From contig JAUFOQ010000017.1 in NCBI GenBank assembly GCA_040285855.1, positions 1,240,001 through 1,304,000 on the forward strand: 64,000 nt of DNA, read 5' to 3'. The number at the start of each line of letters is the position of its first letter. Position 1 is the first letter of the stretch. A program made the position numbers and the translations under genes. The notes beneath the pieces are model-generated. The model was not told where the DNA came from. It saw only the letters and a list, made by a program, of their open reading frames with translations, and made no database searches. Shown in pieces: positions 3,770 to 56,092 of this stretch. The stretch comes from Eukaryota sp. GEM-RC1. Lineage: Eukaryota.

Positions 3770-4099
3770 ATAACAAACGAATTTTGAATTGACTGTCTAG
3801 GTTTCCCAAAAGCATTTTTCCCAATATATTTCAAATATTTCGATATGATTAGAATGAGTAACGTGTCATTATTCATTGCCTGTTGAGAACTATGCAGAAG
3901 CAGAATTGATCGGAGTCGAATGCCACTGTTCTTGGGATAAATAGAGACATAAAATGGTGTCTCCATTTTCTTCTAATCCCGTTTCAAATTGCTAAAATTT
4001 GAAATTTGAAAGAAAAACAGTTTATTGATGGAGAGTACAAAAATACTTATCATAATAAAAGCTATGAAACACTAGACACAGAAAATTCCTGGTCAACAG

Positions 4100-10900: not shown

Positions 10901-13029
10901 AGGAACAGACTTTTCAACAATTTCCGCTTCAGATTCTGAACTTTCAACATTATCATCATCAAATTGTTCATCTTGAATTTCAGGTACATAATTTTGAACA
11001 ATTTCCGCTTCAGATTCTGAACTTTCTACAATATCAACATCAAATTGTTCATCTTGAATTTCAGGTACAGAATTTTGAACAATTTCCGCTTCAGATTCTG
11101 AACTTTCTACAATATCAACATCAAATTGTTCATCTTGAATTTCAGGTACAGAATTTTGAACAATTTCCGCTTCAGATTCTGAACTTCCACCATGATGACG
11201 CTCAGCATCTGCTTCAGAGTCTTTACCATAATCACCATTGTCAAAGTGCTCATCAACAAAATCACCACGAACAGTATCCGAATCAAACTTACCAGAGCAT
11301 TCCTGTAATCCATTGTCAAACTTTTCGATACTAACTCGGAAAAGGTCTGACCCTCATCAACGTCATCAATAACGTCATCATCGACTATGTGATTGATCTT
11401 AGAATTATCATGACTGTGTTCAATATCCACAAACGTTGAAACAGTTTCGACAACATCTGCATTAGAAGGTAGGGATTCGCAATCAATCACATTTGATAGT
11501 GGCACGTCATCTTTGGACAAAAACTGACTGGAGCTTGGTAGAGGATTAGACGAAAATATTTCTGTAATTTTTTTGAATTTTTTCATTGCTAGTAGATCAA
11601 AATTGGGTGCTAGAATTAAATTTTCTAATGATTTATGATCAACAATTACTTGTTGAAATTGATGATCGAAAACCATTTCAAATACTGCTCCAATAGAGAC
11701 AAATGAATTTGAAAAATCAACAAATTGTAAATAATCTGCAGACGTTAAAAAATTCGACATTGTACTACATAGCTGGTCATCATCAGATGTCACTAATTTT
11801 TTAAAATTACAAGCGGATAAACTGACTAGACAAGAGTTTTGAATATTCCCTAAAACATTTAAAAATAGATCTGAATCAATTAAAATCTTATCAACAATTA
11901 ATTCCTCAATTAAACTGAAAACAATCAACAATCCATCAAAATTTGATTGCGAAAAGAAACACTGACTAAGATTCAACTTTTTAACTCCAATATCAGCAAT
12001 AACTGTGGCTAATTCATCAAATCCACCAGTAGAGATCATAGTCGAAGACAAATCTAAAACGGAAAGTGATCGTAACTCGGTCAAAATCAAAACGACAGAA
12101 TCAGCATTCAGATCATTTCCACTAAGATCAAGCTCAGATACATTGCTCTTGGACAAGGCCTTTCCTAGTAAAGAGCAATGAGTCATTGAAAGTCCAGTGC
12201 CACGTAGCACGAGACGTGATAGATTACACGACAAAACAATCAATTTTGATAGATTCAGCACACACATGTCATCCAACTGATTACATCCCAAATCTAAATT
12301 CTGTAGCACAGAGTTGCGATCCAATGAAGACACCAAAGCATCAAGAGATGAAGGTAAAAGGTTTGTACGGGAAAGGTTCAAGTGTGATAGACGTAGTTGA
12401 CAGCGTGGTTTGAAGAAGGTAGTAAGCCCTGGTTCAAGGTTAGGGTTGTTAGAGAAGTCAATGTGGGTGAGAGAGGAGTTAGAGGAAAGGACACGTGATA
12501 GGGAATGCAGGAGAGCGGGATGGAGGTTGGTTGAGGAGAGAGATAAGTCTGTGAGGTTTCGAAGAGAACAGATGAGATCAGAGAAAGCCATGATAGAAGG
12601 TTTGGAGGGGAAAACAGGACCATGAAGTGAAAGGTGTGAGAGGGAATGTAGTTGGGAGCAAGAGTGGTGAAGGGATCTGAAGAGAAAAGTAAAAGGGCAG
12701 TGATTAGGGTAGTCTGTACTAACTGCAGAGACAAATCCAGAGATTGACAGTGATGAGAGATTGCATCTAACCAAAAGATGCACTAGGCATGATGTGACGA
12801 GAGTAGTAGATAAGGGAAACAAAGAAGATAAAAGGGATTTACGGAAAAATGAAACAGAACCAACATGAAAGCGTCTAGTTGAAACTGTATTCAGAAGAGA
12901 CGCTAGTTCTTCTTCTGTGGATATTTGATCAAGACAGATCTGCAAATTCGATATGGCAGAATCGTTAGGAAAAGCGGAGAGAAGAGCATCACTTTCAACC
13001 TCAGTTGGAGGTAGAGTGAGCCAATGCAT
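7930..13029 (-). CDS. Large RNI-like leucine-rich repeat protein with central acidic 27-aa tandem repeats (frameshifted)
   Basis: LRRs (LTDLSLSSTNL, LTHIDFSNN, LQNLDLGCNQL, VSELDLSGNDL) in 11107-13089. Continues via a frame change near 11320 into the EIQDEQFD repeats (9089-10765 ORF) and via further shifts into the 8448-9053 and 8210-8530 ORFs. The single-gene model is inferred. Confidence 0.7.
9265..11190. repeat. 81-bp tandem repeat array, about 24 copies (coding: EIQDEQFDADNVESSESEVEIVENSVP)
   Basis: Unit GTTCATCTTGAATTTCAGG... recurs every 81 nt (9265, 9346, ...). Confidence 0.95.
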
Positions 13030-20063: not shown

Positions 20064-20372
20064 ATTCGCCATTATCTTTAAACTCTCCATTATTAAAAAT
20101 GTATATAAAATTATTTAAACATGTATTTTAGAGTCCGTTTAGGCAATTAAATTTCTACAGTCTACTGTTGCTTTAATGTATCCCTCGAATTGAAATCGAA
20201 TGACAAGTCTCTTCCAGCTCCTGTGAGACTCTATAGATTGCTGACTGTATTTGCTGCAATGCGTTACTGTCAAAATTCTACGAACGAAAGAATTAAAATA
20301 TTGATGCTGTGTCTAAAAAAAGTCGATTTAGATAACATATTGAACGACAACTTATGGGCCAATACAAGTATT

Positions 20373-21701
20373 TTATTCATCAGAAAAAGAAACTTCAGCT
20401 GCATCGACACTTTCAGCTACAAATAGCAAGTCATTTCTCTGTGAAGGATCAACATATCGTTTCAAATAAAACTCTTTCCAAACATAATCCATCACGTCAT
20501 CAACATCTGACTCCTTAACCATGGCAATACAATTCCCACCAAATCCTGCACCAGTCAACCTTCCTCCCAGTACAGACGGATGACCAAGCATCACTGATAA
20601 TAGTAAATCAATGTTAGGGGATGAACACTCGTAATTGTCTCGAAGGGAGTCTTGACTTTGATTCAATAGCTTTCCAAGAACTGTACAAATATTTAAATTG
20701 TCTCCTCCCAAAGAAGATAAATGATCAAATTCCATAACTCTTTGAAATTCTGTAACAACGTGCAATGCTCGTTTGAAAGGTTTGTAGTAGATATCAAAGG
20801 GATTGGTGGATGTAGCAAATGCATTTTTTAAAATTTTTGATTGAATGATGTCTGTTGAAATGTTTAACATTTCGGAAATTTCGAGCAAACTTAACGGTCG
20901 TTGAGGAATTGCACTTTGCAACACTTCTATCATGGCAGATGCTTCATAAACTTCCCCGGCATAAAAGACATCCCGTAGAGACAAAATTTCAAAAATATCA
21001 TCAAGATTCAAAAATTTGGCAACAAATACACACGCCATCCTCATTTCAACAACACATAGATTATATTTCAAATCCTTGGATTCCGCTTTATGACACTCTT
21101 CCAACGAATGTGCTACAATGAACTTAACACAAGAGGGAAGTAAATTTGAGTGACATCTCAAGGGAGAGAAAGATATGTAAGAGTAATGGGATCGCTTGGC
21201 ATTTAGAATGACTGCTTGGTCCATCCCACCACTTAGAGTGCCACAGAATTGTTCAGCTTTGCGTGTGAGTTCAGCAAGAACCATACGGTCGGTAATGGGT
21301 TGGGATAGGAAAAAGTAATTGAAGATTAACATGAAAGTAACTACAATGGCAGAGCTTGAACTTAAACCAGAGGCGATAGGGATGGTAGAGTGACAAGTGA
21401 CATTGAGACCTGAAGAAGTAAGAGGTGAAGATTGTAGATGGTGTATTCCTTTCAATGCACAAATGGCATATGAAGCAAGATTGGGTTTTGAACACGTTAT
21501 GGGGCTATTAGAGAGATTATTGGGATCATCAAGTGAGATATCAAAGGTCTGGTTGTTGATCGTTATGTGAATGGTGTTGGATTCTGTTTTCTTAACTTCG
21601 GCAGTGAAATACCTATTAATTGCAAAGGGGAGAACTTGGAAGTGAGAATAGTCCACATGTTCACCAATGATATTGACTCTAGAAGGTGTGCGAATAATCA
21701 T
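20373..21701 (-). CDS. GALK: Galactokinase / N-acetylgalactosamine kinase, copy 1
   Basis: PSRVNIIGEHVDY, PIASGLSSSSA (GHMP), GGMDQ, RALHVVTE, GGRLTGAGFGG. Confidence 0.93.
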   Translation of the reverse strand: MIIRTPSRVNIIGEHVDYSHFQVLPFAINRYFTAEVKKTESNTIHITINNQTFDISLDDPNNLSNSPITCSKPNLASYAICALKGIHHLQSSPLTSSGLNVTCHSTIPIASGLSSSSAIVVTFMLIFNYFFLSQPITDRMVLAELTRKAEQFCGTLSGGMDQAVILNAKRSHYSYISFSPLRCHSNLLPSCVKFIVAHSLEECHKAESKDLKYNLCVVEMRMACVFVAKFLNLDDIFEILSLRDVFYAGEVYEASAMIEVLQSAIPQRPLSLLEISEMLNISTDIIQSKILKNAFATSTNPFDIYYKPFKRALHVVTEFQRVMEFDHLSSLGGDNLNICTVLGKLLNQSQDSLRDNYECSSPNIDLLLSVMLGHPSVLGGRLTGAGFGGNCIAMVKESDVDDVMDYVWKEFYLKRYVDPSQRNDLLFVAESVDAAEVSFSDE

Positions 21702-21802
21702 AAAGAATAACTTTTCAGAAATGAAATGCATCGACTACTACAATGTAGTATGTTGAATCAGTTTCACTGCAGCAGAATATGCTAGAATCTGCGATGTGAG
21801 CC

Positions 21803-22735
21803 CAGGAGTGTGTATCGATAAAATCTTATTGTTCGATAACGATATATCTACTCTTATCGACCCGACAATTCTGAAAGATATAATTATCGACTGTCTCCAG
21901 CAACATTCCGATATATTGGGATAAATAAGGACAAATTGTTGGAGACAAAATAGACCATTTTTCTGGTTTCACTGAGTGATTTCACTGAAACATGTACACC
22001 GATTGTTTCATTTTTTCATTTTCTCTGGTCACATATCTATATTTATCTATATATGTGACATGGGTGATGTGATATGTGTGATTCACATGTATCACAAAAT
22101 GCATGAAAGTGTGATACCCAAGTATGTATTCAAGTAGGGTTTTAAGTTGATCTTACAAGTATAAAAGTTCATCTAACTTTAAAAGCTCAGTCGATCATTG
22201 GCATTTTTGTTGCGTTTTTCTCGTTAAAGACCAACGAAGTAGTACATTGTGTATTTGGGAGGTCAAAATTGAAACTTTCATATCGAAGTTAGTCTCACTG
22301 AGACCATTTTCTAGTGAGACTAATTGGAAACAATCGCTGTGTTGAAAAGTGTAGTAAAGACTGATAAATGATGTTGGAGAAATTGATTGCTGCAGCACAA
22401 TTACATTTGACCCATGATTTGTCCAGAAAAGACATTGAGGCTGTAGCAAGGTCGCCAACTTGTACTTTAGGCTAGCTAATTCTGCTCTAACCCCTCCAAA
22501 AGCTGAGCACAGAGATACGCGTGGTGCTTGGAAATGCGTTAAGCATAATAAACGTAGTTTTATTAATACACATATATTTCATATTTCTATTGTACGTCAT
22601 TCAATTATCGAAGATATTTTTACCGATTTATGGTTGAATAGTCCATAATTAGATAAGATATACTCCCTGACATTATATTTATCGAAGTTGCCTAACAAAA
22701 CGATAAATAAAAGATATCGAAAATACACACTCCTG
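21803..22735. mobile_element. hAT-like TIR element, about 933 bp, present only in duplication copy 1
   Basis: TIR CAGGAGTGTGTAT; TSD ATGTGAGC (21794-21801, 22736-22743); single empty site at 27326-27333 in copy 2. Confidence 0.92.
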
Positions 22736-23841
22736 ATGTGAGCTATCAATCAGTGAATCAAATGTAATTTACAAAGAGAAGAATATTAAATCGTCAATTC
22801 TATTACAAACACTACAATTGCCCTTGATATTAGGTGAATTTGGTTCCTCTAGTGACATTATTGGAAACAGAGTTTATGAATGAGACGGACTGTAATATGA
22901 ATCAAAATATTAGCTACGAAGCTCTAGACACTCTCATACAACATAATGACAAATATTCAAATGAGGGTAATGGAATCAAGTCTTGGCCCCAGATGTTCAA
23001 GTACTTCAAATTTAGTCTGCACAATTGCCTAATGGAATTCAAATTGTAGGAATTTGGTTAAACAAAACTTGAAATACAAAGAAAAGTTTTCATTGCTTCT
23101 GGTAGTGGCTGATCCAGATCATACAACTTCCTTATCATGTATATAACATGTGTTTGACACGTCACAGGGATATGCCTTGATATGATGAAGTCACGTGTCG
23201 GTAAACGTGTAAGGATGTAGTCAACACCATGTACAATTGTAAAAGCAGGGGATGTTGGTGCAAGAATTGGATGGGAACACAAGTATCCATCATAGATAGA
23301 AGCACGCTGCTATTAGATCAATGAGAAAGACTTGACGCTACTCAGGAACAGCGAGAAGTAGTTGCATCTGATCCAAAATGAATTAAAGATGAAGAAGAAG
23401 AAAGAAGAATTCTCTGGAAAAAAGAAGATTGAGAGAGGAAGGGAAAGCAATGCTACGAGCCTGTTTGACAACAAAGGGTATGATTGTAAGGGCAAATGAA
23501 GAGATCTAGCATATGAAACAATCTCTCTCCTTAATAGGTACAATAGTACGAGCAATGACAGAACGCAATTGAAGGTCATGATACGATGTGGATGTTAGAG
23601 CTAAAACACGGTTAGGGCAAATGATGTGATCACTGGCGGTATATAAGAGTTGATTAGGACACCAATATATGTTCCATCTCATACGAGGAGGATGTTAGAG
23701 CTAGAACACACTTGCAAGAAAAAAAACCAATGGAAGCGTGTTAGCACTGATATGACATTAAGGCCTGTCCGCTATACAAGCCGCCCTCAAGGCATTATAG
23801 AGAAGATAGAGATAGAGAAGATAAAGGCTTAAGACAACCCT

Positions 23842-25643
23842 AAAGTAGTATTTTATTAAAGCCATGAACATGAGAAAGACTCATCAGCTATTTAGAGGAT
23901 TGTTGGAAAAAGTCTATCACAAGCACTAGTGGTAGCAGTAAAAAGTGAAAAGAAAACTGTTGGCAAAATCAAAATCCCCTATGACACGGAATCCTGCTGA
24001 GAGGAAAGTGATGAACAATCAATTACAATGTCGACAGTGACTTATTTCCGTCTCATGACTCCATCAGGTTTGTTGATGTCTCACACAATAAGAGGTTCCA
24101 ATCCTCCTCGGCTGGATGTTTCGTATCCAGTTGAGACTGAAAGTTCCGTCCTTTCAGTTATGTGTTCAGGAGGTTCCAATCCTCCTAACACTATAAGAGG
24201 TTCCAATCCTCCTCGGCTGGATGTTTCATATCCAGTTGAGACTGAAAGTTCCGTCCTTTCAGTTATGTGTTCAGGAGGTTCCAATCCTCCTAACACTATA
24301 AGAGGTTCCAATCCTCCTCGGCTGGATGTTTCATATCCAGTTGAGACTGAAAGTTCCGTCCTTTCAGTTATGAATTTGGGTGGGGACTACGGCCCTAACC
24401 CAGGATTAACAACTCAGGGCAGTTGCAGAGAAGAGGCTTATAGCTTGATATCTGCAACTCCTGATGAGTTAATACCGCAGTGGTCCGTGTCTTGTTGTAA
24501 AACTCGACAAAAGCAATTCACTTTTGATTTGGAGAATAAACACAATTTCAAATTTTGTTTGATTCATTTGTTTGTGAAAGATTTAACCAACGATGGTGAT
24601 ATCGAGTCGAATCCCGGACCGGTATCATTTAACTCACATGAATTTGAAGACATAACATTGTTGTCTGAATGTGAATGGTTAGAGCTATTCCATCTTCTTT
24701 TTCCATAAATAATATCAGTTTGGATTACCCACTCGCCAATCAAACTATTGGATTTTTATCATGTATATAACTTTCTAACGTTAGAGAAAGATGTTATTTA
24801 TCATGATATAAGAGAAAAAAATGCAGATTGTCGGCTTGTTCTTATTCTCATGAACAATGGTATTATTGACGGATTTGCTGGAACTCACTGGGGACTATGT
24901 GTTATAGATTTCATGACTGAAACGTTATACTTCATGGATTCTATTTCTAACAGTGATTTGTTGTCCTCAAAAATTGATTTTATACAATCGTTTTGCCCAA
25001 ACAACTTTTACCATTGTCACATTAATTCTGTGAAACAGGACAATGGTTATGATTGTGGCATATTTGTTCTGTATTTTATTGAAGTTTTATTTAAGACATT
25101 TAACGTTGAAACAATTGATCACATTGATCACTGTATAATGATGACAGATTTTCAAAATGAAATTATGCATCATCAATTTGATCCCTCTCAATTTCGTATC
25201 AGATTGAACTTAAAACTGGACAGCCACGTTAATCCAGGAAAAAGGCTTGCCACTGTCAGCAATATGCCTCCAAGAAAACAAAAACGATCAAACAATAATA
25301 ATGAAAACGAACCCCAACTGGTGAAAAAACCAATTGGGCGTAAATGTTCAAAGTGTAGAAACACTGGTCATGATATAAGAAAATGCCCATTGGCAGTAAA
25401 AACAAGTGAAAAAACAAACGAAAAAGAATCACCAGTTAAGTCTGAAAAAAGAAAAGATCCTTTCGAAAACGTAACCTTAATGTTAGATCACAAACACTCG
25501 ATTAAGTGCATTTTTGTGAAAATGATCGAAGCTTCAGCAGCTATTAAAGAAACTAAAAAAGAAAAAAGAGAAAAAAATAATCACATCAATTATCACTCAA
25601 ACAGTTCAAGTCCAGGACCAAGTAATTACAATTGTAGAATCAA
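23842..25643 (+). mobile_element. 3'-truncated copy of the Fanzor element (repeats, 2A, Ulp1-like protease, zinc knuckle)
   Basis: Near-identical to 28432-30125; ends at the duplication junction. Confidence 0.85.
24085..24372 (+). repeat. 105-bp (35-aa) coding tandem repeat, about 2.8 copies (about 1.8 copies in copy 2 at 28675-28857)
   Basis: AGAGGTTCCAATCCTCCTCGG at 24091, 24196, 24301. Confidence 0.9.
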
Positions 25644-25907
25644 AATTATTTAAACATGTATTTTAGAGTCCGTTTAGGCACTTAAATTTCTACAGTCTAC
25701 TGTTGCTTTAATGTATCCCTCGAATTGAAATCGAATGACAAGTCTCTTCCAGCTCCTGTGAGACTCTATAGATTGCTGACTGTATTTGCTGCAATGCGTT
25801 ACTGTCAAAATTCTACGAACGAAAGAATTAAAATATTGATGCTGTGTCTAAAAAAAGTCGATTTAGATAACATATTGAACGACAACTTATGGGCCAATAC
25901 AAGTATT

Positions 25908-27236
25908 TTATTCATCAGAAAAAGAAACTTCAGCTGCATCGACACTTTCAGCTACAAATAGCAAGTCATTTCTCTGTGAAGGATCAACATATCGTTTCAA
26001 ATAAAACTCTTTCCAAACATAATCCATCACGTCATCAACATCTGACTCCTTAACCATGGCAATACAATTCCCACCAAATCCTGCACCAGTCAACCTTCCT
26101 CCCAGTACAGACGGATGACCAAGCATCACTGATAATAGTAAATCAATGTTAGGGGATGAACACTCGTAATTGTCTCGAAGGGAGTCTTGACTTTGATTCA
26201 ATAGCTTTCCAAGAACTGTACAAATATTTAAATTGTCTCCTCCCAAAGAAGATAAATGATCAAATTCCATAACTCTTTGAAATTCTGTAACAACGTGCAA
26301 TGCTCGTTTGAAAGGTTTGTAGTAGATATCAAAGGGATTGGTGGATGTAGCAAATGCATTTTTTAAAATTTTTGATTGAATGATGTCTGTTGAAATGTTT
26401 AACATTTCGGAAATTTCGAGCAAACTTAACGGTCGTTGAGGAATTGCACTTTGCAACACTTCTATCATGGCAGATGCTTCATAAACTTCCCCGGCATAAA
26501 AGACATCCCGTAGAGACAAAATTTCAAAAATATCATCAAGATTCAAAAATTTGGCAACAAATACACACGCCATCCTCATTTCAACAACACGTAGATTATA
26601 TTTCAAATCCTTGGATTCCGCTTTATGACACTCTTCCAACGAATGTGCTACAATGAACTTAACACAAGAGGGAAGTAAATTTGAGTGACATCTCAAGGGA
26701 GAGAAAGATATGTAAGAGTAATGGGATCGCTTGGCATTTAGAATGACTGCTTGGTCCATCCCACCACTTAGAGTGCCACAGAATTGTTCAGCTTTGCGTG
26801 TGAGTTCAGCAAGAACCATACGGTCGGTAATGGGTTGGGATAGGAAAAAGTAATTGAAGATTAACATGAAAGAAACTACAATGGCAGAGCTTGAACTTAA
26901 ACCAGAGGCGATAGGGATGGTAGAGTGACAAGTGACATTGAGACCTGAAGAAGTAAGAGGTGAAGATTGTAGATGGTGTATTCCTTTCAATGCACAAATG
27001 GCATATGAAGCAAGATTGGGTTTTGAACACGTTATGGGGCTATTAGAGAGATTATTGGGATCATCAAGTGAGATATCAAAGGTCTGGTTGTTGATCGTTA
27101 TGTGAATGGTGTTGGATTCTGTTTTCTTAACTTCGGCAGTGAAATACCTATTAATTGCAAAGGGGAGAACTTGGAAGTGAGAATAGTCTACGTGTTCGCC
27201 AATGATATTGACTCTTGAAGGTGTGCGAATAATCAT
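25908..27236 (-). CDS. GALK: Galactokinase / N-acetylgalactosamine kinase, copy 2
   Basis: Same GHMP motifs as copy 1; retains YNLRVVE. Confidence 0.93.
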   Translation of the reverse strand: MIIRTPSRVNIIGEHVDYSHFQVLPFAINRYFTAEVKKTESNTIHITINNQTFDISLDDPNNLSNSPITCSKPNLASYAICALKGIHHLQSSPLTSSGLNVTCHSTIPIASGLSSSSAIVVSFMLIFNYFFLSQPITDRMVLAELTRKAEQFCGTLSGGMDQAVILNAKRSHYSYISFSPLRCHSNLLPSCVKFIVAHSLEECHKAESKDLKYNLRVVEMRMACVFVAKFLNLDDIFEILSLRDVFYAGEVYEASAMIEVLQSAIPQRPLSLLEISEMLNISTDIIQSKILKNAFATSTNPFDIYYKPFKRALHVVTEFQRVMEFDHLSSLGGDNLNICTVLGKLLNQSQDSLRDNYECSSPNIDLLLSVMLGHPSVLGGRLTGAGFGGNCIAMVKESDVDDVMDYVWKEFYLKRYVDPSQRNDLLFVAESVDAAEVSFSDE

Positions 27237-28617
27237 AAAAAACAGAAAACAAACTAAAGAAAAACTTTTCAGAAATGAAATGCGTTGAATCAGTTTCACT
27301 GTAGTAGAAGATACTAGAATCTGCGATGTGAGCTATCAACAGTGAATCAAATGTAATTTAGAACGAGAAGAATATTAAATCGTGAATTCAATTACAAAGA
27401 CAACAATAGCCCTTGATATTAGACGAATTTGGTTCGCTAATCACGTTATTTGAAACAGAGTTTATGAATGAGACGGACTGTAATAAGTATCAAAATAATA
27501 GCTACGAAGCTCTCGACACTGAACATATTGGAGCCACAGTTCTCATACAACATACTGACAAATATTCAAATAAGGGTAATGGAATCAAGTCCTGGCCCCA
27601 GATGTTCAAGTACTTCAAATTTAGTCTGCACAATTGCCTAATGGAATTCAAATTGTAGGAATTTGGCTAAACAAAACTTGAAATACAAAGAAAAGTTTTC
27701 ATTGCTTCTAGTAGTGGCTGATCCAGATCATACAACTTCCTTATCATGTATATAACATGTGTTTGACACGTCACAGGGATATGCCTTGATAAGATGAAGT
27801 CACTTGATGGTAAACGTGTAAGGATGTAGTCAACACCGTGTACAGTTGTAAAAGTAGGGGATGTTGGTGCAAGAATTGGATGGGAACACAAGTATCCATC
27901 ATAGATAGAAGCACGCTGCTATTAGATCAATGAGAACGACTTGACGCTACTCAGGAACAGCGAGAAGTAGTTGCATCTGACCCAAAATGAATTAAATGAA
28001 TTCTCTGGAAAAAGAAGATTGAGAGAGGAAGGGAAAGCAATGCTACGAGCCTGTTTGACAACAAAGGGTAGGATTGTAAGGGCAAATGAAGAGATCTAGC
28101 ATATGAAACAATCTCTCTCCTTAATAGGTACAATAGTACGAGCAATGACAGAACGCAATTGAAGGTCATGATACGATGTGGATGTTAGAGCTAAAACACG
28201 GTTAGGGCAAATGATGTGATCACTGGCGGTATATAAGAGTTGATTAGGACACCAATATATGTTCCATCTCATACGAGGAGGATGTTAGAGCTAGAACACA
28301 CTTGCAAGAAAAAAAACCAATGGAAGCGTGTTAGCACTGATATGACAATAAGGCCTGTCCGCTATACAAGCCGCCCTCAAGGCATTATAGAGAAGATAGA
28401 GATAGAGAAGATAAAGGCTTAAGACAACCCTAAAGTAGTATTTTATTAAAGCCATGAACATGAGAAAGACTCATCAGCTATTTAGAGGATTGTTGGAAAA
28501 AGTCTATCACAAGCACTAGTGGTAGCAGTAAAAAGTGAAAAGAAAACTGTTGGCAAAATCAAAATCCCCTATGACACGGAATCCTGCTGAGAGGAAAGTG
28601 ATGAACAATCAATTACA

Positions 28618-29193
28618 ATGTCGACAGTGACTTATTTCCGTCTCATGACTCCATCAGGTTTGTTGATGTCTCACACAATAAGAGGTTCCAATCCTCCTCG
28701 GCTGGATGTTTCATATCCAGTTGAGACTGAAAGTTCCGTCCTTTCAGTTATGTGTTCAGGAGGTTCCAATCCTCCTAACACTATAAGAGGTTCCAATCCT
28801 CCTCGGCTGGATGTTTCATATCCAGTTGAGACTGAAAGTTCCGTCCTTTCAGTTATGAATTTGGGTGGGGACTACGGCCCTAACCCAGGATTAACAACTC
28901 AGGGCAGTTGCAGAGAAGAGGCTTATAGCTTGATATCTGCAACTCCTGATGAGTTAATACCGCAGTGGTCCGTGTCTTGTTGTAAAACTCGACAAAAGCA
29001 ATTCACTTTTGATTTGGAGAATACACACAATTTCAAATTTTGTTTGATTCATTTGTTTGTGAAAGATTTAACCAACGATGGTGATATCGAGTCGAATCCC
29101 GGACCGGTATCATTTAACTCACATGAATTTGAAGACATAACATTGTTGTCTGAATGTGAATGGTTAGAGCTATTCCATCTTCTTTTTCCATAA
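28618..29193 (+). CDS. N-terminal segment with 35-aa repeats and 2A (StopGo) peptide
   Basis: FVKDLTNDGDIESNPGP matches the D(V/I)ExNPG-P consensus exactly (29083-29106). Confidence 0.8.
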   Translation: MSTVTYFRLMTPSGLLMSHTIRGSNPPRLDVSYPVETESSVLSVMCSGGSNPPNTIRGSNPPRLDVSYPVETESSVLSVMNLGGDYGPNPGLTTQGSCREEAYSLISATPDELIPQWSVSCCKTRQKQFTFDLENTHNFKFCLIHLFVKDLTNDGDIESNPGPVSFNSHEFEDITLLSECEWLELFHLLFP

Positions 29194-29232
29194 ATAATAT
29201 CAGTTTGGATTACCCACTCACCAATCAAACTA

Positions 29233-29720
29233 TTGGATTTTTATCATGTATATAACTTTCTAACGTTAGAGAAAGATGTTATTTATCATGATATAAGAGA
29301 AAAAAATGCAGATTGTCGGCTTGTTCTTATTCTCATGAACAATGGTATTATAGACGGATTTGCTGGAACTCACTGGGGACTATGTGTTATAGATTTCATG
29401 ACTGAAACGTTATACTTCATGGATTCTATTTCTAACAGTGATTTGTTGTCCTCAAAAATTGATTTTATACAATCGTTTTGCCCAAACAACTTTTACCATT
29501 GTCACATTAATTCTGTGAAACAGGACAATGGTTATGATTGTGGCATATTTGTTCTGTATTTTATTGAAGTTTTATTTAAGACATTTAACGTTGAAACAAT
29601 TGATCACATTGATCACTGTATAATGATGACAGATTTTCAAAATGAAATTATGCATCATCAATTTGATCCCTCTCAATTTCGTATCAGATTGAACTTAAAA
29701 CTGGACAGCCACGTTAATCC
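29233..29720 (+). CDS. Ulp1/SENP (C48) cysteine protease domain, SENP8/DEN1-like
   Basis: GTHWGLCVID (His 29371), YFMDS (Asp 29422), KQDNGYDCGIFVL (Gln and Cys 29539). Confidence 0.88.
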
Positions 29721-29747
29721 AGGAAAAGGCTTGCCACTGTCAGCAAT

Positions 29748-32700
29748 ATGCCTCCAAGAAAACAAAAACGATCAAACAATAATAATGAAAACGAACCCCA
29801 ACTGGTGAAAAAACCAATTGGGCGTAAATGTTCAAAGTGTAGAAACACTGGTCATGATATAAGAAAATGCCCATTGGCAGTAAAAACAAGTGAAAAAACA
29901 AACGAAAAAGAATCACCAGTTAAGTCTAAAAAAAGAAAAGATCCTTTCGAAAACGTAACCTTAATGTTAGATCACAAACACTCGATTAAGTGCATTTTTG
30001 TGAAAATGATCGAAGCTTCAGCAGCTATTAAAGAAACTAAAAAAGAAAAAGAGAAAAAAATAATCACATCAATTATCACTCAAACAGTTCAAGTCCAGGA
30101 CCAAGTAATTACAATTGTAGAATCAATTATATTCACTACACAACAAAGTTGCGATTCAGTTCTGTCACCTAATTCTGAGCATGCTAGAGTGAATGTTCAA
30201 GCGTTTAATCAAGAGGAATCTATAATTAGTGCGTTTAATGATTATTTAGTTTTAACTGACTGTGGTCTGATAATTGGTTATGATGCAAGTTCTACGATGG
30301 ATGAATTTAATTTAAAATCAGAGAATTGTTCAATTATTCAGTGTCCTCTTTTTTACAAATATTTTTTAAAACAATTCAAAAATTCAAAAATTCAGTTAAT
30401 AGATTTGGGCCGTGTTATTAGAAATTATTACAGACCTAGAACTGGAAAATCTTTGAATTGGGTTACTGTTGTAAAGAACATTTTAAAAAATGAAAGTTAT
30501 TCAGTTCCCACACCAGTTTCTACAGATTTCACCATTGAACAAAACTTGAACTGTTTACGTGAACATTTTAACGATATTGTTGAATTACAAAGCCTTTTTG
30601 TGTATTTCCTTCAAGTCGAAACACAAGAATTGCTGAAATGCCCGGGTGAAAAAACGGTTATAGTAACCCTAAAATCTGTTTGGACTGATAACAACATATT
30701 GGTAGATGAAATTTCTATAAATCATCACCGAATTAAACAACGTGCATTGCTGCTACTTCAAGGCTTTTGCATGAACTCTTTTGATAATCAGGAATTGAAT
30801 CCAGTAGAATGGACCAAAGAAAGTGTCCACCAATTGCTCTGGACTATTGGATTCTTGTCTCCATTAGCTCATCAAAGATTTAAAAATGAGGAAAATATTG
30901 ATGGAAGTGAAATTCTCAAATGGGTAACTGAGATTGTTCAAAGTACTCCAGGCAAAAAGCACAATGCTTTAAAAATTCAACTCGGATGCTTCTATATCCA
31001 ACATCTTCTCCCCGTGGATATGGAAATTCCCAATGTCAAGTACTCTGATATGTCTCGTACATTAAGTTATACAGCTACTGAGATTGTTACAATGTATCAA
31101 AATAATATTTCATCCCATTTTATTGAATATTTGGAAAAAACATGGGAACTCTTCTTTAATTTAAATGGACAACTAAAAATTATTAAAAACAATGCACTTA
31201 AAAAAGTCGAAAAAGACCAGTTGCAAAAGTTGTCCAATAATATCCTTAAAGAAATTTTAGAAGGCAGAGGATCCGATATTGATTTTACCGAGATCTGGCA
31301 AAATCCATCAGATGAACATCAAAATTTCATTACATTTGTCAAAAACTTTAAGCCAGACTCTAAAGGACTCAAATACCAATTAAAGGTAAAGCCTTTGGAG
31401 CTCTTACCAGAGGCCTTCGTTCTCAACAAATTGATTGAGAATAACCCTTCCTGTAATGAGATTCCACCAAAGATGTACCGCATGTTTCCACAATCCACCA
31501 GCTTAATTCCTGATCACCTTCGATTGGACACGTAAGCTATGATTAAATTATTCAAACCTCAAGTTCAAGGTTATAATCTAACACATCTGACCAAAAACAT
31601 TAATTTATTTAAAAATGAAATTTGGAGCCAGTATTTGAATCTTGATCACAAATACTTGAACACTTTCAAAAGATGTATTCATTTGGTCACCAGATAACTA
31701 CCAATGGTGAATCAATCAGTCTCATGATGACCAGAAATGATCTACTGTTCAAACCATACTCTGCCAAGTCTCCGGAGGAAAAAGAGGAGTATGTGGAAGA
31801 TTTACATCCTGAAAAATTAGAGGATTTTAAAAAATAAAAAAAGTCGTGGTAGGGGACCCTAACCAATGGGATATTCTGTACTTGGTTGGAAGAAAAACCC
31901 AGGAAGAAATTGATAATTCTGGGCATTGTGCTCCCCACTTGACCCAAAAATCTCAAAAACATATGAAAAGAAGAGATTGAAAGAAATTAAAAGGCATAAA
32001 GCCCAGTTCCAAAAAGAGAATGATGAGGTCAAAAAATCAAGTAAAAAGAGACCATTTCAAAAGAAAAATCAATTCAAAAAAATGAGATATACTCAAGGAA
32101 CTCGAAGGCACGAAGGAAAACAAAAAAAAATACAATGTATTTCAGAACCAAGCCTTCAATAACTATTCTTTTACCGAAATTTCAGGAAGACAACTGACAG
32201 CTGAACAGATTCAGACAGAATTTTCAGAATTTACTTCCAAAACAACAAAGTTTTCAAAATTTAAAGCTTACGTCCAACAATTCTACAAGTATGCAAATAG
32301 AATGGAGTCTCTGTACCATCAATCTAAATGGCGCAAATGGAGCTATTGGAAATCAGTATACAAGGAAAAAAGTGAACGTAAAATGCTCCATCGATTCCGT
32401 CAAGTTTACGGAGATCCAACCAACACGTGGTTGGCCATAGGTGATTGGAGTCAGTCAAGGCATAGGAAATACAAGCCTCCAACCATGGGGAAAGGATCAA
32501 GAAAGTTGTTCAAAAAGCTGGCTATCAGGTTCTTCTGGTTAACGAATTCAGGACATCTCTTCAGTGCCACGGATGTTCTGAGAACAACGATGACGAAGGG
32601 GAAACGGAAACCTTCCTTAAAGTCAAGGATCCAAACTTCAGGAAGAAGAAGCGAAGAGTTGAAAAGAAGGCAAATCGCCTATCAGCGCTGATGAATTGGT

Positions 32701-33017
32701 CTAGTTGGACGGACGAAGATGACAAGCTGTTGTGGCAGGAAGAGGCAGATGAAGTCAAGTGTTGGGGTTTAGTGCGTTGTAAAAAATGTCATAAACTCTG
32801 GAATCGAGACTTCAATAGCTGTTTGAATATTCTGAAGATTGTTGAGTGTACTCTCGCTGGTGAGGATCGACCAATGTGTTTCTCCGACAAGTTAGCTGAA
32901 GAAAGACGGAAGAGAGCAGCAAAGAGTACAAACAACAATGAAGATTCAATAACAGAAACAGTGGCGGACCCGCAAGGGATAGAACCGCCACAGCCCATGT
33001 GCACTGAATGTAGATGA
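29748..33017 (+). CDS. Zinc knuckle + degenerate exonuclease-like domain + Fanzor1 (TnpB-family RuvC) nuclease; interrupted in this assembly
   Basis: CSKCRNTGHDIRKC knuckle; Fanzor1-type motifs LSYTATEIVTMYQNNISSHF, FPQ..IPDHLRLDT, ITTNGESISL; RuvC-I VVVGDP (31855); MRYTQ; LAIGDWS..PPTMGKG; RuvC-II VLLVNEFRTSLQCHGC (32544); zinc ribbon CKKC; RuvC-III WNRDFNSCLNI (32808). One TAA at 31533 plus several frameshifts, mostly in A runs. Confidence 0.88.
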
Positions 33018-33100
33018 ATGTCCATATATCGTTACATCTTAGGAGAAATTCACAGAAAATGAATTAAGAAAACTACTCTTGACAACTCTCTTTTGAAATG
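32955..33100 (+). ncRNA. Candidate Fanzor omegaRNA (scaffold plus start of guide)
   Basis: GTGGCGG/CCGCCAC stem enclosing a CCC-GCAA-GGG tetraloop hairpin; AATTCA/TGAATT hairpin; located at the ORF 3' end and element right end. Confidence 0.55.
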
Positions 33101-37895: not shown

Positions 37896-38334
37896 TTTGT
37901 CTGACCGTTTTTTGGTAGGTTTTTTGTGTTAGTTTATTTTTTAGTTTTTTTGTTCTTTATATTTAAGTTTAGCAAACGGTTTGGTACTGCTGTTTGTATT
38001 CAAAGCAAGGTTTGCAGATTTTCTTTTATGCACTCCTTATTACATTTTGTCTAGACACAGTTAATTATTGATTTAGTAGTATTATTTCATTTAAAACTAT
38101 ACAAATTCGATATGGTCACAGAAACAAAGGATCAGACAATGTTTTAGACTATGTCCTCAACGTTATTTCTTAGACGTTCTTTAATTTTATTTGAACTTGG
38201 AATTTCTATTTCATACATAAGGTTTTACTCACGACAATATCACGAAAAAATGTTAAACCACTTCAAACACCGTCTTATGGTTGGCATGTGTAAATCTTTG
38301 AATACCAGATTTGAGAAGTAGCAAACATTATAGT

Positions 38335-39270
38335 CAGGGGTACTCAAAATTGAATTGCCAATTAATTGGTTCTCAAATTATGGAAACAATTAATATTGCA
38401 ATTAGTGCAATTAATTGGCAATTAATTGACCAATTCATCAGTTATTGTTTATGAAAACAAAATCGTAGATTATAAAACTAAATTCGGAATACAATCGTGT
38501 TCCGCATACAAATTTGCTTCGCCAATCTTCGTTAAAACTTCCCTTCCCACAACAAAGGCATTTTGTACCCCTCTTTTATTATCCTTAAGAGAATGTCTGC
38601 TGGCAGAAATCGATCGCTTTCCGTCTGTCTCACCATTATCAACATTGACAACATTGCTGTGCAGGGCCATTGTTCGACACTTTAACCATTGAAAAGTTTT
38701 CAGTTATGTTGGTGGAGTCTTGTTATTGCTATATAAATTTGTGATTTGAAATACATAAATCAAAAAGATTTAACTTCTTCTGAATCGGCTAATGTTTTTT
38801 TTTGAGATGATCTTTTATTCGAGAATAAAAAAAAGATGATCTAAAACTCAATGTCATCAAAACAAGATTCCTTCGAATCGAACCTTGTTGAAGCTTTGTC
38901 TTCATAAAAACACACTTAGGGATAACAAAGCTTTTGAAATCATTGTTGGAACTGCCTTTAGAATCGTAAAGACAATTCGGTTCTGCCAAAAGAACGATCA
39001 AATATTTTGTGATCGGCTAATGTAGACACACTTTATGAGATTTCGATAAAAAAGTTTTTGTTCGCACACATTTTTTAAAGCTAGATTGCTTTCTTTTCGC
39101 ATTTCAATAATTGTTCTGCAGTATATTCATAACAAACTGATTAGACCAATAATTGGTTAATTGGTCAATTAATTGCCAATTAATTGGTGGGGTATGACGA
39201 TCGACCAATTAATATTGCAATTAATTGATTGGCAATAACTGAATTGGCAATTCAATTTTGAGTACCCCTG
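38335..39270. mobile_element. hAT-like deletion derivative, 936 bp
   Basis: Perfect TIR CAGGGGTACTCAAAATTGAATTGCCAATT; TSD ATTATAGT; minus-strand remnant ending 'IKDHLKKKH' (possibly BED-finger-like). Confidence 0.9.
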
Positions 39271-39278
39271 ATTATAGT

Positions 39279-40274
39279 CAGGGCTCTGTAATATTGAATT
39301 GCCAATTCAATATTGTCAATAAATATGTACCAATATTGATTGGTTGCCGAAAAACCAATACCAATATATTGCCAATATTGATCAATATGGATGTTTGGGT
39401 ATTTTGTCTCAAACATCTACGGGACAATGTATATGAGTGTCTGTCAGCTGTACATTAATTGAACTTCTTAGTACAAATGAGCCAACCACTTACGTTATGA
39501 GAAAATCTGTCAATCCAATAGAAGAATTATATAGTTCAAACTTAACTTACTCTTACTATCTTTATGACGGACAATAAAACAATCTGTCTCACCTTTTATT
39601 CCCTTACATCCAAGAATTTGAGTCCGGTGTCTTGAAAGTAATTGATGGAACCGAAAGTTTATTTACTACTCAAGAAAAGAACTATCTTCAGAAGTTTGAA
39701 ATGGGGGAAAGTCCTGTCATTTTGTTTCCAGAACCAGAAAGTCAGGGAAGGAGAGAAAGGAACGCTTTCTGAACGAGCCTCTCAATTATCACAGACCAGA
39801 AGAACTGCCAATAGAAAATATCAAGATTTGACTTGGATTCCAGCCACTTCTGTGGAGATTGAGAGACTTTTTTCCAAAGTCAAACTTGCAGTTGGAATGA
39901 CTCGCTATTCTTTATCCAATAGCAGATTGAAAGCTCAACTTTGGTTGCATTACAACAGAAGTCTTTGGAATGTTGGAACTGTTCGTAAAGCTTGTTGAAT
40001 ACAATTAATCAATGTTAATCTAAAGAAGTCTTTAGTTTCTTTTTCTGGATTAGTATGTATTATATTATAATTATTGTTGCAAGTACACTCTTCATTGGTT
40101 TTACAGTAGTAGTTTATTGTTTTATGCATTTTAGAAGTAGATCTTGATAAAGCTACTTCATATACTAGGTTTAACTATATTGGCAATATTGGCAATATAT
40201 TGGTCGATACCAATATTGATTGGAAGGTCAAAAACCAATACCAATATATTGCAATACAATATTACAGAGCCCTG
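39279..40274 (+). mobile_element. hAT deletion derivative with C-terminal dimerisation domain, 996 bp
   Basis: TIR CAGGGCTCTGTAATATTG; TSD ATTATAGT; ORF 39642-39998 contains 'WIPATSVEIERLFSKVKL..RYSL..L.AQLWLHYNRSLW'. Confidence 0.93.
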
Positions 40275-41159
40275 ATTATAGTACACCTTTCTTTATATTT
40301 GTATACATATGTGATTTCTTACGATTAATGTTTCAAACATCTGACATTATACTGTATATGTAACAGTATCTATTTTTCCTTCATGTTCCTTCATCTAGAA
40401 GTTGTTGATTGATAGGATTCTTTAAAAAATGTGGAAATTTAATTATACATGTAATCTTCTGAAAACATTAAAATTTGTTATCATCCAAACAAGACACATC
40501 ACGGTCAAATCGTTCAATTGCTTTGTTCATATAACGAACTCACAGAGAAAGATAGGATCTTTTATAGGAAATTAAGATACTGATGAAGATAGATTACACA
40601 ACGATTAGCAACACCCATGTAGTGTTGCCACATTATATTAAACAATGAAATTCTCATTCTGAACAAACTACATTTAGAATACAAAACAACATTCAAGTCT
40701 GCTGGATGAGGTCGAGGAAGACTTGCTCCTTATACGTGGGAAAAAAGCCACAAGCAAAGAAAAGTTGAATTGAGTCTGAGGGGTGTGAATCAATTGATTA
40801 ATAGGAATTTATGGAGTGAATTTTATTGCAGAAAAAGTGAGTGTTACTAAAAACGTACATTTTACATGTGTAGCTCGTTAGTTGCTCATGGGTCAATACT
40901 TATGTATATGTTCACTACTCAAACTAAAAAATATGAGGTAATACAACATCTCTGCTCTTGTATTTATCTATTTGTACTTTTTGCACCCCTTGTATTTTCC
41001 AGGTACAACAGTACATGTAGTACTTAAAAAACGAATTGATTTGAAAATGATTTGAACGGACTTGCAGACAAACAATGACATTTCGTCTTCTCGGAACTGC
41101 GAAATTGTTGTGGTGACGTGATAATTAATAAATACTACTTAAGGTCTTTAAAAGATCGT

Positions 41160-46410: not shown

Positions 46411-48897
46411 ATGCCCGAATCTGATGATTCAGAGAGTCGCGTTAGAGTCTTTATTCGACCTAGACCTCCAACGGTTGAAGAAGCCAAACTTGGCTCATGC
46501 ATCTCTCTTAATGGCAACTCCATTATTGTTCAAAAAGATCAAACTACTTCGAATCAGTTCCACTTTGACGCTGTATTCCCTCTTTCTGCATCTCAACAAG
46601 ACTTATATGACAAAGTAGGACGACCTGTAGTTTCTGATGTTCTCAATGGCATTAATGGTGCCATTCTAGTATATGGACAGGTATTTTTATCACTCTCCAC
46701 CTAACCAAAGACTGGTACTGGTAAAACCTATACCCTTGGAATTCTTGACAATCTCCGTACCACTAACTTAGAAGATGCTGGTATCATTCCCAAAGCTCTC
46801 TCAGAGTTATACTCAACCATTGAATCTAAGCGTAAAACCAAAGAAATCTCTAAATATTCCATCAAGCTATCTTTTCTCCAGCTCTATCTTGAAACAGTCC
46901 AAGATCTCCACCATCCTACAGACAACCTCAGCATCAGAGAGCACCCAGAACGTGGAATCTACGTGGCAAATCTTTCTGATCAAGAATGTCCCTCCTTATC
47001 TTCCGCAATAGACTTCATCAACAAGGGTCTTTCCAATCGAATCGTGGCTCCCACACTCCTCAATGTCACGTCAAGTCGAGCTCATACCGTCCTGACAGTC
47101 AACGTGAAGACTTTGGGAGTTTCTGAAGATAAGATTCCTGTTAAAAGATCTGCTAAGTTAGTGTTTACTGACTTGGCAGGAAGTGAGAGGGTTAAGAAGA
47201 GTTTGAGTAGAAGAGGGTTAGAGGAGAACTATCAAAAAAGATTGGCAGAGTCACGTGCGATTAACACATCACTTGCCGCTTTGGGCAATGTGATCTCTAT
47301 TTTGAGCTGTACTAATCAATCAACAATCAGTCACATACCTTATCGTGATTCTAAACTTACTAGAATTCTACAACCGGTTTTCAGTGGTCATTGTCGAGTT
47401 TCTGTTGTTTGCACTGTCTGTGAGTCTAAAGCTGCAGGTTCTGAATCTCTTTCAACTCTGCTATTTGCTGAAAGATGCGCAGGAGTCCGTATAGTACCTG
47501 TTCTGAACGAGTCTGTGTCTTCTAATGATCCCGTCTACGTCATCAAACAACTGACAGAGGAAGTGAGGAGATTGAAGAAGGAATTGGCGGAGGTGAAGAG
47601 TAGAAAGGAGGGTCAATCTAGTGGAGTTGAGTATGTGAAGAGTGAAAGTGGTGACGTTGTTGATTGCAATCAGGATTTGATGGGGGTTGTTGGTGAGGTG
47701 TATTCAGCGTTGGTTTCACAGGTTTCTGACTTGAGTGTGCGTTCAAACATTAGACGTCAGCTTCAGGAACGATCTCTGTATCAGGAAGTCGAAGCAGAAG
47801 TCAGACGAAGTCAAGAGAATTCTGAGCTATTTAGACGTGATGAGATGAAGTATGCAGTGCCATCAAAACAGATTGAGTCTACGTCAGTGATACAACAGAA
47901 TTATCCTATTCCAGAACCAAATGTTTCTCAATCACCGACTGTCAATCAGTTGACTACGGAAGACTTGATTAATGGACGAGCACAAGTTTCCCGAGAAAAT
48001 TTAAATATTGTGTCTAATACTCTAACGAATCTAGTTTCCACTCTAGCAGTGCATACGACAGCTGCTGAGGATTCTTGTCTGGAATTTAGGGATGAAATTG
48101 TTCATTTATTAAAATTCAAACAAAATTTAGAAGCGGAACAAGAAAACTGGCGTCAAGTTTTAAAAAGTTTGTTATTAAAAAATGGCGAACAACGATCTCA
48201 GATTCAACGTCAATGTTTAATTATTGAAAAGGCATTCACTGAGAATAACTACTTACGTGAATCTCTGTCTCAGTCAGAATCAATAATCGTTCAATCACGT
48301 CGCCAATCAAAAATGCCGAATTTCTCTGTTATCAATGCCGAGTTGCTGCCATCAGTAACACGTGGTATAAGAAAAGCTCAGACTTTATGGAGAATCAAAA
48401 GGTATTGTAGGAAGATGAAAAAGGAAAGTTCTGTTTCCAAAGCACGTTCACGAGCTCAATCAAATGCCTCATTACAAAATTCAAATATTTCAAAAATTAC
48501 AAATGTTTCAACTGTTTTCGCAAAGCCATCCCCGCTTTCTTCAGAAGGTCCTCTCCACAAAGCCACTCAAGAAATCCTGAACGCCTTCCAGTACACTCTA
48601 GATTATCTACTGCCCAATCAACGTGATTGTAAGGGATCAGATGCTGATGACGTGACGTCACAGACACCTTCCCTAGTCAGTTCAAGGTCTTCTCGTCTGC
48701 GGAGTTTTTCCTCATGGACAGACACGTGCACTGTGCCGTCTAGGTCATCGACACCTTCCCACTCAATGACGTTTCCATCTCAATCAAGTAGGTTTTTGAC
48801 CCCAGCTCTAAATGTTCCTCCGAAAAGAGCGGCTGAATTACTCAGAGCTGATTCTGATTCCAGTGAGAGTGATGGGTTTGAGCAGATTGCATTGTAA
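46411..48897 (+). CDS. Kinesin-like motor protein, one intron (46681-46710)
   Basis: VRVFIRPRP, YGQ|TGTGKT after splicing a 30-nt GT..CTAAC..AG intron, SSRAH, DLAGSE, HIPYRDSKLTRIL. Confidence 0.92.
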
Positions 48898-49778
48898 ATA
48901 TTTAAAGATTTTTTTGATTTTGTATCGTTGATGTGGTGTGTTTTGTTCCATTATTTTGCTTTTGGTTGTTTTAAATAACAATGAATTGTGAAATTCTTAA
49001 ACTTGTCGGAATTGTATGTGGCATTTTGTATGACATGTCTTCTGACATTATTATTAATTGCAATCACTGGACTAAGCGTACATCTGTTGATACATACCCG
49101 AATTGAATTGTTCACTCAAGCGTTTTACATTTGCTTTTTTAATAAACAGGGTCTATTTAATTTTGAAAGTATTTCGGTAACAAATTGTTTTTAACGTATC
49201 TATTTATTATTTAATGATTGATTTTGAGCTGAATTTTGATAGCTTACGAAAATAATAATCATGCTAAAAATACAGAATTGGGCACTATTTGATGTCCAGT
49301 GTAATGCAAAAACAGTCAAAAAACCCATCTTTCTTCGGATTATGCCTGATTAGAATATCTCCAGTATACAAAGGCCAAGGCCAAGACTATTGAAACACAC
49401 GCAATATCAGTTCTGTAAAAGTGAAATCTACTGAAATCTACACTTGATTATGGGAGTTGAAGACGATTCAAAATAGGCTGCTGGTGTTTATTTGAAGGGT
49501 TTATGACAATGCTGGCCAATATGCTGGAAACTACCTCTGGAAACCAATTTACAAATATTTGGAGCACGGTTCACGGTGTGCCATTTCCTTGGTTAAATTT
49601 TCACACACAATACTATTGCACTAAATAAACTTTGGATGCTGTATTAATCTAAAATACAGATTTTCTCTGTTGTCAAATGCACACTCTTTCCAAAAATGAA
49701 ATGCGCCAAATGCATGTTGGCTGAATGCGCGCATTTTACGTACGCATTTTGAAAGAAAATCATTTTCTTTAACTTTCA

Positions 49779-55959: not shown

Positions 55960-56092
55960 TTATGACACTGCACCGCTGCAATATTCACCTACAGTTCGAG
56001 GTGTATTTTTACGAAAAATTTTGAGAAGAGTTGGGAATTGAACTTCATGTTTACTTGGTTGACGAATTCCGAACCATCAAGAAATGTGGACC
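55960..56092 (+). pseudogene. Decayed Fanzor fragment (RuvC-II region)
   Basis: 'YSPTVRGVFLRKILRRVG' followed, after a frame break, by 'HVYLVDEFRTIKKC'. Confidence 0.65.

What the first reader, a model, noticed from the sequence alone, without database searches (positions are those of the whole stretch)
29020..29232. Canonical 2A StopGo peptide in a DNA-transposon-like element
HLFVKDLTNDGDIESNPG-P is a perfect 2A motif present in both copies (also 24598-24621). 2A peptides are established in RNA viruses and some non-LTR retrotransposons. Here it would create a new N-terminal Pro for the protease-Fanzor product. Both copies have an in-frame TAA 29 codons later with the same frame continuing into the protease, so readthrough, a shared mutation or recoding must be resolved.
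Basis: partly seen in the sequence, partly recalled or inferred. Interest (0 to 1): 0.8.

Follow-up and report, generated by a model that had tools for sequence, protein, structure and literature searches.

The report
2A-split protease–Fanzor mobile-element polyprotein
A repeated element in a single-celled eukaryote carries a virus-type ribosome-skipping (2A) sequence directly in front of a ubiquitin-like protease and an RNA-guided Fanzor nuclease gene; the signal is predicted to split one long protein in two, but these copies are broken by a stop codon that is likely an inherited mutation.

Summary
The 2A motif is real. FVKDLTNDG-DIESNPG|P (29056-29106) fits both the core and a published upstream class (motif 4). 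It scores at the median of 112 viral 2A contexts and is invariant in 7 of 7 database copies. It sits exactly at the start of a SENP8/DEN1-like C48 protease, followed by a zinc knuckle and a Fanzor1. An unnamed protein only 28% identical (P0050) has the same repeats-2A-protease order in one open frame, which argues the junction is a functional design. The two window copies are a tandem duplication, not independent evidence. A stop at or next to codon 30 ends all 7 copies. It lies inside the protease fold, beside loss of a conserved Asp, so it is most likely an inherited nonsense lesion. A homopolymer assembly error is not excluded; an intron or readthrough is unlikely. No transposase or element ends were found, so 'DNA transposon' is inferred. 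Skipping is untested. I found no paper describing a 2A or a C48 protease fused to Fanzor; 2As with deubiquitinase domains are already reported in retrotransposons.

The parts
28618..29103 (+). Leader ORF, 162 codons from the first ATG to the 2A Gly; holds 105-bp tandem units (28670-28857; one more unit in copy 1)
   Evidence: varying unit number among 7 database copies
29056..29106 (+). 2A/StopGo peptide FVKDLTNDG-DIESNPG|P, upstream motif-4 type; predicted skip between 29103 and 29104
29104..29703 (+). SENP8/DEN1-like C48 cysteine protease; His 29371, Asp 29422, Gln 29521, Cys 29539 present; Asp of the WLxD motif missing
29191..29193 (+). In-frame TAA inside the protease, just after the WL helix
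   Evidence: stop at or next to this place in 7 of 7 database copies
29704..29873 (+). Linker (DSHVNPG, A4/A5 run at 29724), basic MPPRKQKR stretch from ATG 29748, CCHC knuckle 29829-29870
   Evidence: zf-CCHC E 0.32, below the Pfam cut-off
29874..30650 (+). Unassigned region of about 260 codons; weak DEDD/RNase H-like leads only
   Evidence: scores 0.77-0.79; pLDDT 33
30651..33017 (+). Fanzor1 nuclease, all 3 RuvC acidic residues present (Asp 31855, Glu 32544, Asp 32808); broken by TAA 31533 and five frame changes near 31665, 31830, 31935, 32125, 32492
22735..25643 (+). Upstream duplicate of 27325-30126, truncated before the Fanzor domain; 2A core 24598-24621, TAA 24706-24708
28870..28893 (+). 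Degenerate in-frame 2A-like octamer DYGPNPGL (no Glu, no terminal Pro); predicted inactive
27556..28090 (+). Possible older decayed 2A-protease unit (ESSPGP, WLN, YHVYN, GYDC-like); weak lead only
   Evidence: not significant

Best explanation
This is a multicopy Fanzor1-carrying element whose ancestral single reading frame likely ran repeat leader - 2A - C48 protease - zinc knuckle - unknown domain - Fanzor1; the 2A is predicted to release the 162-residue leader during translation, and the TAA is likely a nonsense mutation inherited from the family's founder copy. Shown: the motif and its context, the domain order, the catalytic residues, and a stop at or next to this place in all 7 database copies. 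Inferred: that the ribosome skips at G|P; that the downstream product starts with Pro at the first residue of the protease fold; that this frees the protease-nuclease protein from the leader and may ration it, as proposed for retrotransposon 2As; that the protease removes NEDD8/SUMO-type tags. In the present copies translation would end 29 codons after the skip, so no protease would be made, and any Fanzor would need a downstream start such as ATG 29748.
For: Motif expected 3e-5 times by chance. The upstream 12 residues score 6.5 bits against a median of 6.2 for 112 viral contexts; 0.14% of 4343 null windows reach it. It fits the published motif-4 signature WV(R/K)DLTx[acidic]G with D at p12 and S at p15, except F for W; a representative of that class gave almost 100% StopGo in reticulocyte lysate (PMC12846837 section 10). 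GDIESNPGP is invariant in 7 of 7 copies while nearby residues vary. P0050, 28% identical over 193 residues, has tandem repeats, FKEDLTMDGDVESNPGP, then a C48 protease with no stop, and a weakly colinear GKRLA/basic tail. The codons before the TAA match the family's D..LL....WL start (5 of 300 shuffles as high) and form a helix in the model (block pLDDT 76). The stop falls in a column with Tyr in 21 of 33 rows and is one base from a Tyr codon; the Asp present in 29 of 29 rows is absent. Trp-to-catalytic-His spacing is 70, within the family range of 61-80. The second TAA (31533) is Met in a 95% identical copy, so nonsense changes do arise in this family.
Against: No skipping assay. Only 1 of 61 non-self protease hits carries a 2A, and a quick tree neither joins it to the window's protease nor excludes one origin. 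No intact copy with the Fanzor attached was found. The fusion is pieced together from two copies, each open where the other shifts. The segment around the TAA fits the family equally poorly in the annotated frame and in a two-indel detour (2.3 vs 2.2 bits; 76.6 vs 78.6 bits). The Tyr alignment depends on where a 2-residue gap is placed. For the other five copies I saw protein ends only, not codons. Some motif-perfect retrotransposon 2As had little or no activity (PMC3708506 passages). No transposase or ends were found.
Confidence: 0.6

Rival explanations
1. The TAA is an assembly artefact. Paired single-base errors around the T5C2 run (29183-29189) and about 60 bases downstream put it in frame, and some genomic copies encode an intact 2A-protease(-Fanzor) polyprotein.
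For: One copy (P0011) differs by a one-base shift at this very spot. Host genes in the window show single-base frame changes at homopolymers (read by eye). The two window copies differ by one base in two A runs. The named sibling records come from a Nanopore assembly corrected with Illumina (PMC11316075 passages). A frame-3 detour aligns almost without gaps to the family profile.
Against: The missing WLxD Asp lies upstream of the run and is not explained by it. The detour gains only 2 bits, or none. No control was computed for how often breaks would lie near homopolymers by chance.
Confidence: 0.18
2. The 2A-like motif is a relic that no longer skips in this organism; the element is a decaying passenger.
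For: The protease start is damaged family-wide. Two further in-frame DxxxNPG octamers in the element lack key residues. Context can silence a perfect core.
Against: Full motif-4 context is retained and the core is invariant in 7 of 7 copies, though these are young copies.
Confidence: 0.1
3. A short intron removes the TAA (best candidate GT 29156 to AG 29203, 48 nt, in frame).
For: The host has short GT...CTAAY-NNN-AG introns (46681-46710). ATAAT-ATC-AG at 29194-29203 has similar spacing, and a close match to the host pattern lies at 29248-29269.
Against: Splicing would delete the WL motif and shorten Trp-to-His spacing to about 55, below all 39 measured homologs. The branch site is ATAAT, not CTAAY. 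Removing the 22-nt candidate creates TAG or a shift. Spliced variants score no better.
Confidence: 0.06
4. Programmed readthrough or a changed genetic code decodes the TAA and meters protease-Fanzor output.
For: The stop position is shared across copies and the frame stays open for 204 (copy 2) or 314 (copy 1) codons beyond it. A weak hairpin follows (z about -1.7).
Against: TAA ends 21 of 35 long ORFs, including host genes. P0050 has no stop here. The context TAA-ATA is not a known readthrough signal (recalled). The element has other stops and shifts.
Confidence: 0.04

Closest known systems
Viral 2A/StopGo, upstream motif 4 (DLTxDG; PMC12846837, section 10 read)
   Same: Core DIESNPGP, G at p11, D at p12, S at p15, V-K-D-L-T-x-D-G upstream.
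   Different: F in place of the usual W; in a cellular repeated element, not an RNA virus; activity untested.
2A-like peptides of non-LTR retrotransposons (L1Tc, Ingi, CR1, L2, Crack; PMC3708506 passages) and ORF2p with Josephin or OTU deubiquitinase domains (bioRxiv 10.64898/2026.06.17.732966 passages)
   Same: A 2A near the N-terminus of a mobile-element polyprotein, ahead of the first enzyme domain; some carry a ubiquitin-family protease.
   Different: Here the protease is C48 (SENP8-like) and the nuclease is Fanzor1; Pfam found no reverse transcriptase or APE domain in the ORFs scanned.
Fanzor1 elements (PMC3627910 and PMC10530073 passages; structures 8gkh, 9cf0, 9cer)
   Same: Fanzor1-like N-terminal half, RuvC D/E/D, zinc ribbon; multicopy.
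   Different: Relatives found are stand-alone proteins of about 630 aa; 0 of 49 viral Fanzor1 loci had a 2A or a C48 protease within the fetched flanks. No transposase partner or termini identified.
Kaonashi MULE-Ulp1 transposons (PMC6117577 passages citing Hoen 2006)
   Same: A DNA transposon carrying a C48 protease domain.
   Different: No MULE transposase here; those passages mention neither 2A nor Fanzor.
DEN1/NEDP1/SENP8 deneddylase (PDB 1xt9)
   Same: Top fold match (E 1.8e-7, TM 0.53); catalytic His, Asp, Cys and oxyanion Gln present.
   Different: 18% identity, WLxD Asp lost, stop inside the domain; substrate unknown.

Membership tests
2A/StopGo peptides | Core (D/G/C/N)(V/I)ExNPGP | tested here: met
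   DIESNPGP
2A/StopGo peptides | Suitable upstream tunnel-binding context | tested here: met
   Motif-4 fit; median score among 112 viral contexts
2A/StopGo peptides | Within an open frame, at a domain boundary, with a long downstream product | tested here: inconclusive
   Boundary met; frame stops 29 codons later in all copies seen, open in P0050
2A/StopGo peptides | Co-translational skipping at G|P | not testable with these tools
   Needs a reporter assay
C48 (Ulp1/SENP8) proteases | His-Asp-Cys triad with oxyanion Gln and CE-clan fold | tested here: met
C48 (Ulp1/SENP8) proteases | Intact N-terminal WLxD segment in an open frame | tested here: not met
   Asp absent, TAA at codon 30: a broken member
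Fanzor1 | RuvC D, E, RD motifs and C4 zinc ribbon | tested here: met
Fanzor1 | Closest to Fanzor1 rather than Fanzor2/TnpB | tested here: met
   Only Fanzor1 chains matched in PDB; no tree was built
Fanzor1 | Structured guide RNA at the 3' end | tested here: inconclusive
   Best folding z about -1.5 in 32850-33100; no Rfam match
DNA transposon | Transposase, terminal repeats or target-site duplication | tested here: inconclusive
   None found in the window; ends cannot be mapped without the other copies' DNA
DNA transposon | Dispersed multicopy family | tested here: met
   7 leader proteins on contigs of 5 different lengths

The most novel reading that the evidence does not exclude
A family of protist mobile elements expresses an RNA-guided Fanzor1 nuclease as part of a virus-style polyprotein: an active 2A releases a repeat leader, and the nuclease travels fused to its own deneddylase/deSUMOylase. 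Some copies are intact, the breaks here being partly assembly errors, and P0050 marks a distant branch of the same 2A-protease module.
Probability: 0.3. Interest if true: 0.78.

Novelty: new variant of a known kind. Interest (0 to 1): 0.55.

Why it matters
Natural 2A use outside RNA viruses is rare and is described mainly for retrotransposons. A 2A ahead of a protease-Fanzor1 would extend StopGo to RNA-guided nuclease elements and suggest how such elements limit a toxic nuclease and counter ubiquitin-like host control. The peptide can be tested in one reporter assay. The value is capped because every copy seen is broken and the element class is unresolved.

Tried and rejected
No whole genome or reads were available, so the TAA was not checked in raw data and element ends were not mapped. 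Longer (406-2000 aa) relatives of the 2A-protease: none among 407 candidates. Relatives of the protease in viral and metagenome contigs: none; of P0050 in viral contigs: none. Motif-4 scan of metagenomes: 48 loci, 52 motifs; no tblastn hit to the protease or Fanzor in any. I sent 39 of the 52 ORF windows to Pfam, leaving out overlapping or near-duplicate ones; 10 matched (RNA helicase 6, capsid 2, dsRNA-binding 2, APE-type endonuclease 1; one window had two), none C48 or TnpB. Older paralog at 27556-28090: protein alignment 37 and 42 against 24 controls of 26-49; DNA scores reached by 5 to 105 of 400 controls; kept as a lead only. SNSSSPGP at 30080 is off the Fanzor-bearing frame in this copy and was set aside. 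Middle domain: single-sequence model unusable. Tree: quick method only, unresolved. Rfam: one chance-level match. Literature searches without a description of 2A or C48 with Fanzor, or of 2A in a DNA transposon: (listings only; subscription papers and supplements were not seen).

Full report
OBSERVATION. DIESNPGP is at 29083-29106 and 24598-24621; chance expectation in the window is 3e-5. The TAA is at 29191-29193, after 29 sense codons from the Pro, and the frame continues into a Peptidase_C48 domain. The two copies belong to a tandem duplication (20092-25643 and 25625-30126) that also copies galactokinase, and they are 99.5% identical over the 2A region. They are one observation, not two.

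THE 2A. The residues upstream read FVKDLTNDG. PMC12846837 (section 10 read in full) defines motif 4 as WV(R/K)DLTx[acidic]G with D at p12 and S at p15, and reports almost 100% StopGo for one representative. These gave 119 distinct full contexts, 112 after removing near-duplicates. The window's 12 upstream residues score 6.47 against a leave-one-out median of 6.22, and 0.14% of 4343 null windows score as high. The collection holds seven copies of the leader protein: two from the window and five that NCBI labels Eukaryota sp. GEM-RC1, on contigs of five lengths. GDIESNPGP is unchanged in 7 of 7, with 0-9 differences in the last 112 residues. These copies are young, so invariance is weak evidence of selection. 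A perfect core is not proof of activity (PMC3708506 passages).

WHAT FOLLOWS IT. The Pro is the first residue of a SENP8/DEN1-like protease. The catalytic His, Asp, Gln and Cys are invariant in a 36-row alignment; the model has pTM 0.76 and its best fold match is DEN1. Then come a linker, a basic stretch from ATG 29748, a CCHC knuckle (below the Pfam cut-off), about 260 unassigned codons and a Fanzor1 from 30651 with all three RuvC acidic residues. Only Fanzor1 structures matched. Copy 1 is in frame from protease to knuckle; copy 2 is in frame from knuckle to Fanzor. The single ancestral frame is therefore inferred from the pair. No transposase, reverse transcriptase or termini were found.

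AN INDEPENDENT PARALLEL. A full HMMER search with the protease gave 62 hits. One of the 61 non-self hits, P0050, holds a 2A. It has N-terminal 33-residue tandem repeats, FKEDLTMDGDVESNPGP, a C48 protease beginning 14 residues before its conserved Trp (19 in the window), a second degenerate protease and a basic tail, all in one frame. Identity to the window is 28% over 193 residues. The tails align weakly, sharing GKRLA (E 0.002 pairwise). P0050 has no Fanzor. A quick tree of 64 domains does not join the two proteases and does not exclude one origin. Controls: 0 of 49 viral Fanzor1 loci had a 2A or this protease, and 0 of 48 metagenome motif-4 loci had the protease or a Fanzor.

THE TAA. Six of seven copies end LLFP and one ends LLFHK through a one-base shift, so the stop is family-wide; I saw protein ends, not codons, for the five outside the window. 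It is not a recoded codon: TAA ends 21 of 35 long ORFs here. It lies inside the protease. The preceding codons match the family's start (5 of 300 shuffles), the stop aligns with a Tyr-rich column (21 of 33), and the neighbouring invariant Asp (29 of 29) is missing. An intron would cut Trp-to-His spacing to about 55, outside the 61-80 seen in 39 homologs. An assembly error remains open. Host genes in the window have single-base shifts at homopolymers (gene names from recalled motifs), the Fanzor breaks lie at or near such runs (no chance control), and the named siblings come from a Nanopore assembly with Illumina correction (PMC11316075 passages). A two-indel detour scores the same as the annotated frame. 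Real mutation also occurs: the TAA at 31533 is Met in P0018, which shares the next frame change.

MECHANISM. In the intact ancestor the ribosome would start at ATG 28618, translate a 162-residue repeat leader, skip at G|P and continue into protease-knuckle-Fanzor. The likely purposes are to free the protease's N-terminus and to lower the amount of nuclease; the rationing idea is borrowed from retrotransposon 2As. The protease would remove NEDD8- or SUMO-type tags; its substrate is inferred from fold only. In today's copies the protease would not be made. Two further in-frame DxxxNPG octamers (28870, 29704; 0.0008 expected in this span for one) lack key residues and may be relics; P0050 has no NPG at the second site.

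COMPARISON. It works like the 2A-headed polyproteins of non-LTR retrotransposons, some of which carry Josephin or OTU domains (bioRxiv 10.64898/2026.06.17.732966 passages). C48 domains in DNA transposons are known from Kaonashi MULEs (PMC6117577 passages). Fanzor1 capture by several DNA-transposon groups is known (PMC3627910 and PMC10530073 passages). PMC12338488 (outline and section 7) and bioRxiv 10.64898/2026.09.24.754024 (passages) contain no word starting 'transpos'. My searches found no account of 2A or C48 joined to Fanzor; supplements and subscription papers were not seen. An unchecked note from this scan describes a 2A-OTU-Rep Helitron in another genome, which suggests the theme recurs.

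VERDICT. Observation confirmed. The 2A is very probably genuine by sequence. The architecture is a new variant of known parts, seen only in broken copies plus one partial relative. Interest 0.55.

Noticed in passing
window 21802-22734: About 930-bp insertion present only in the first duplicate, with inverted ends (CAGGAGTGTGTAT) and an 8-9 bp duplication (GATGTGAGC): a likely non-autonomous hAT- or MULE-type element.
   Followed up: partly
window 38329-39309 and 39273-40280: Two adjacent elements of about 1 kb with terminal inverted repeats beginning TATAGTCAGGG, sharing a TA at the junction; Tc1/mariner-like MITEs by recall.
   Followed up: no
window 9095-11338: About 25 tandem 81-bp units, 90-99% alike, with ORFs over 740 codons open on both strands.
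   Followed up: no
window 55850-56100, 57130-57162, 62600-63080: Faint remnants resembling the Fanzor C-terminal region, inside a decayed duplicated stretch (57154/62701, 58112/63220).
   Followed up: partly
window 4012-4086: 74% identical to 27452-27526, upstream of the element's leader; may mark another decayed copy of a 5' region.
   Followed up: partly
window 46681-46710 (+), 278 (-), 53240 (+): Short introns or candidates (26-35 nt) with GTAT start and a CTAAY-NNN-AG end; the first restores the kinesin P-loop.
   Followed up: partly
window 49773-50883 and 51734-53149: Host genes (carbohydrate-kinase-like and kinesin, named from recalled motifs) each broken by two single-base frame changes at homopolymers, suggesting uncorrected long-read errors.
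   Followed up: partly
window 20373-21734 and 25908-27332 (-): Two intact galactokinase copies, 97% identical, made by the same tandem duplication.
   Followed up: no
L160-L165 and L170: Fanzor1 relatives in very large viral contigs (up to 733 kb); in L160-L162 and L164-L165 the match spans about 2.2 kb, longer than the usual 1.9 kb.
   Followed up: no
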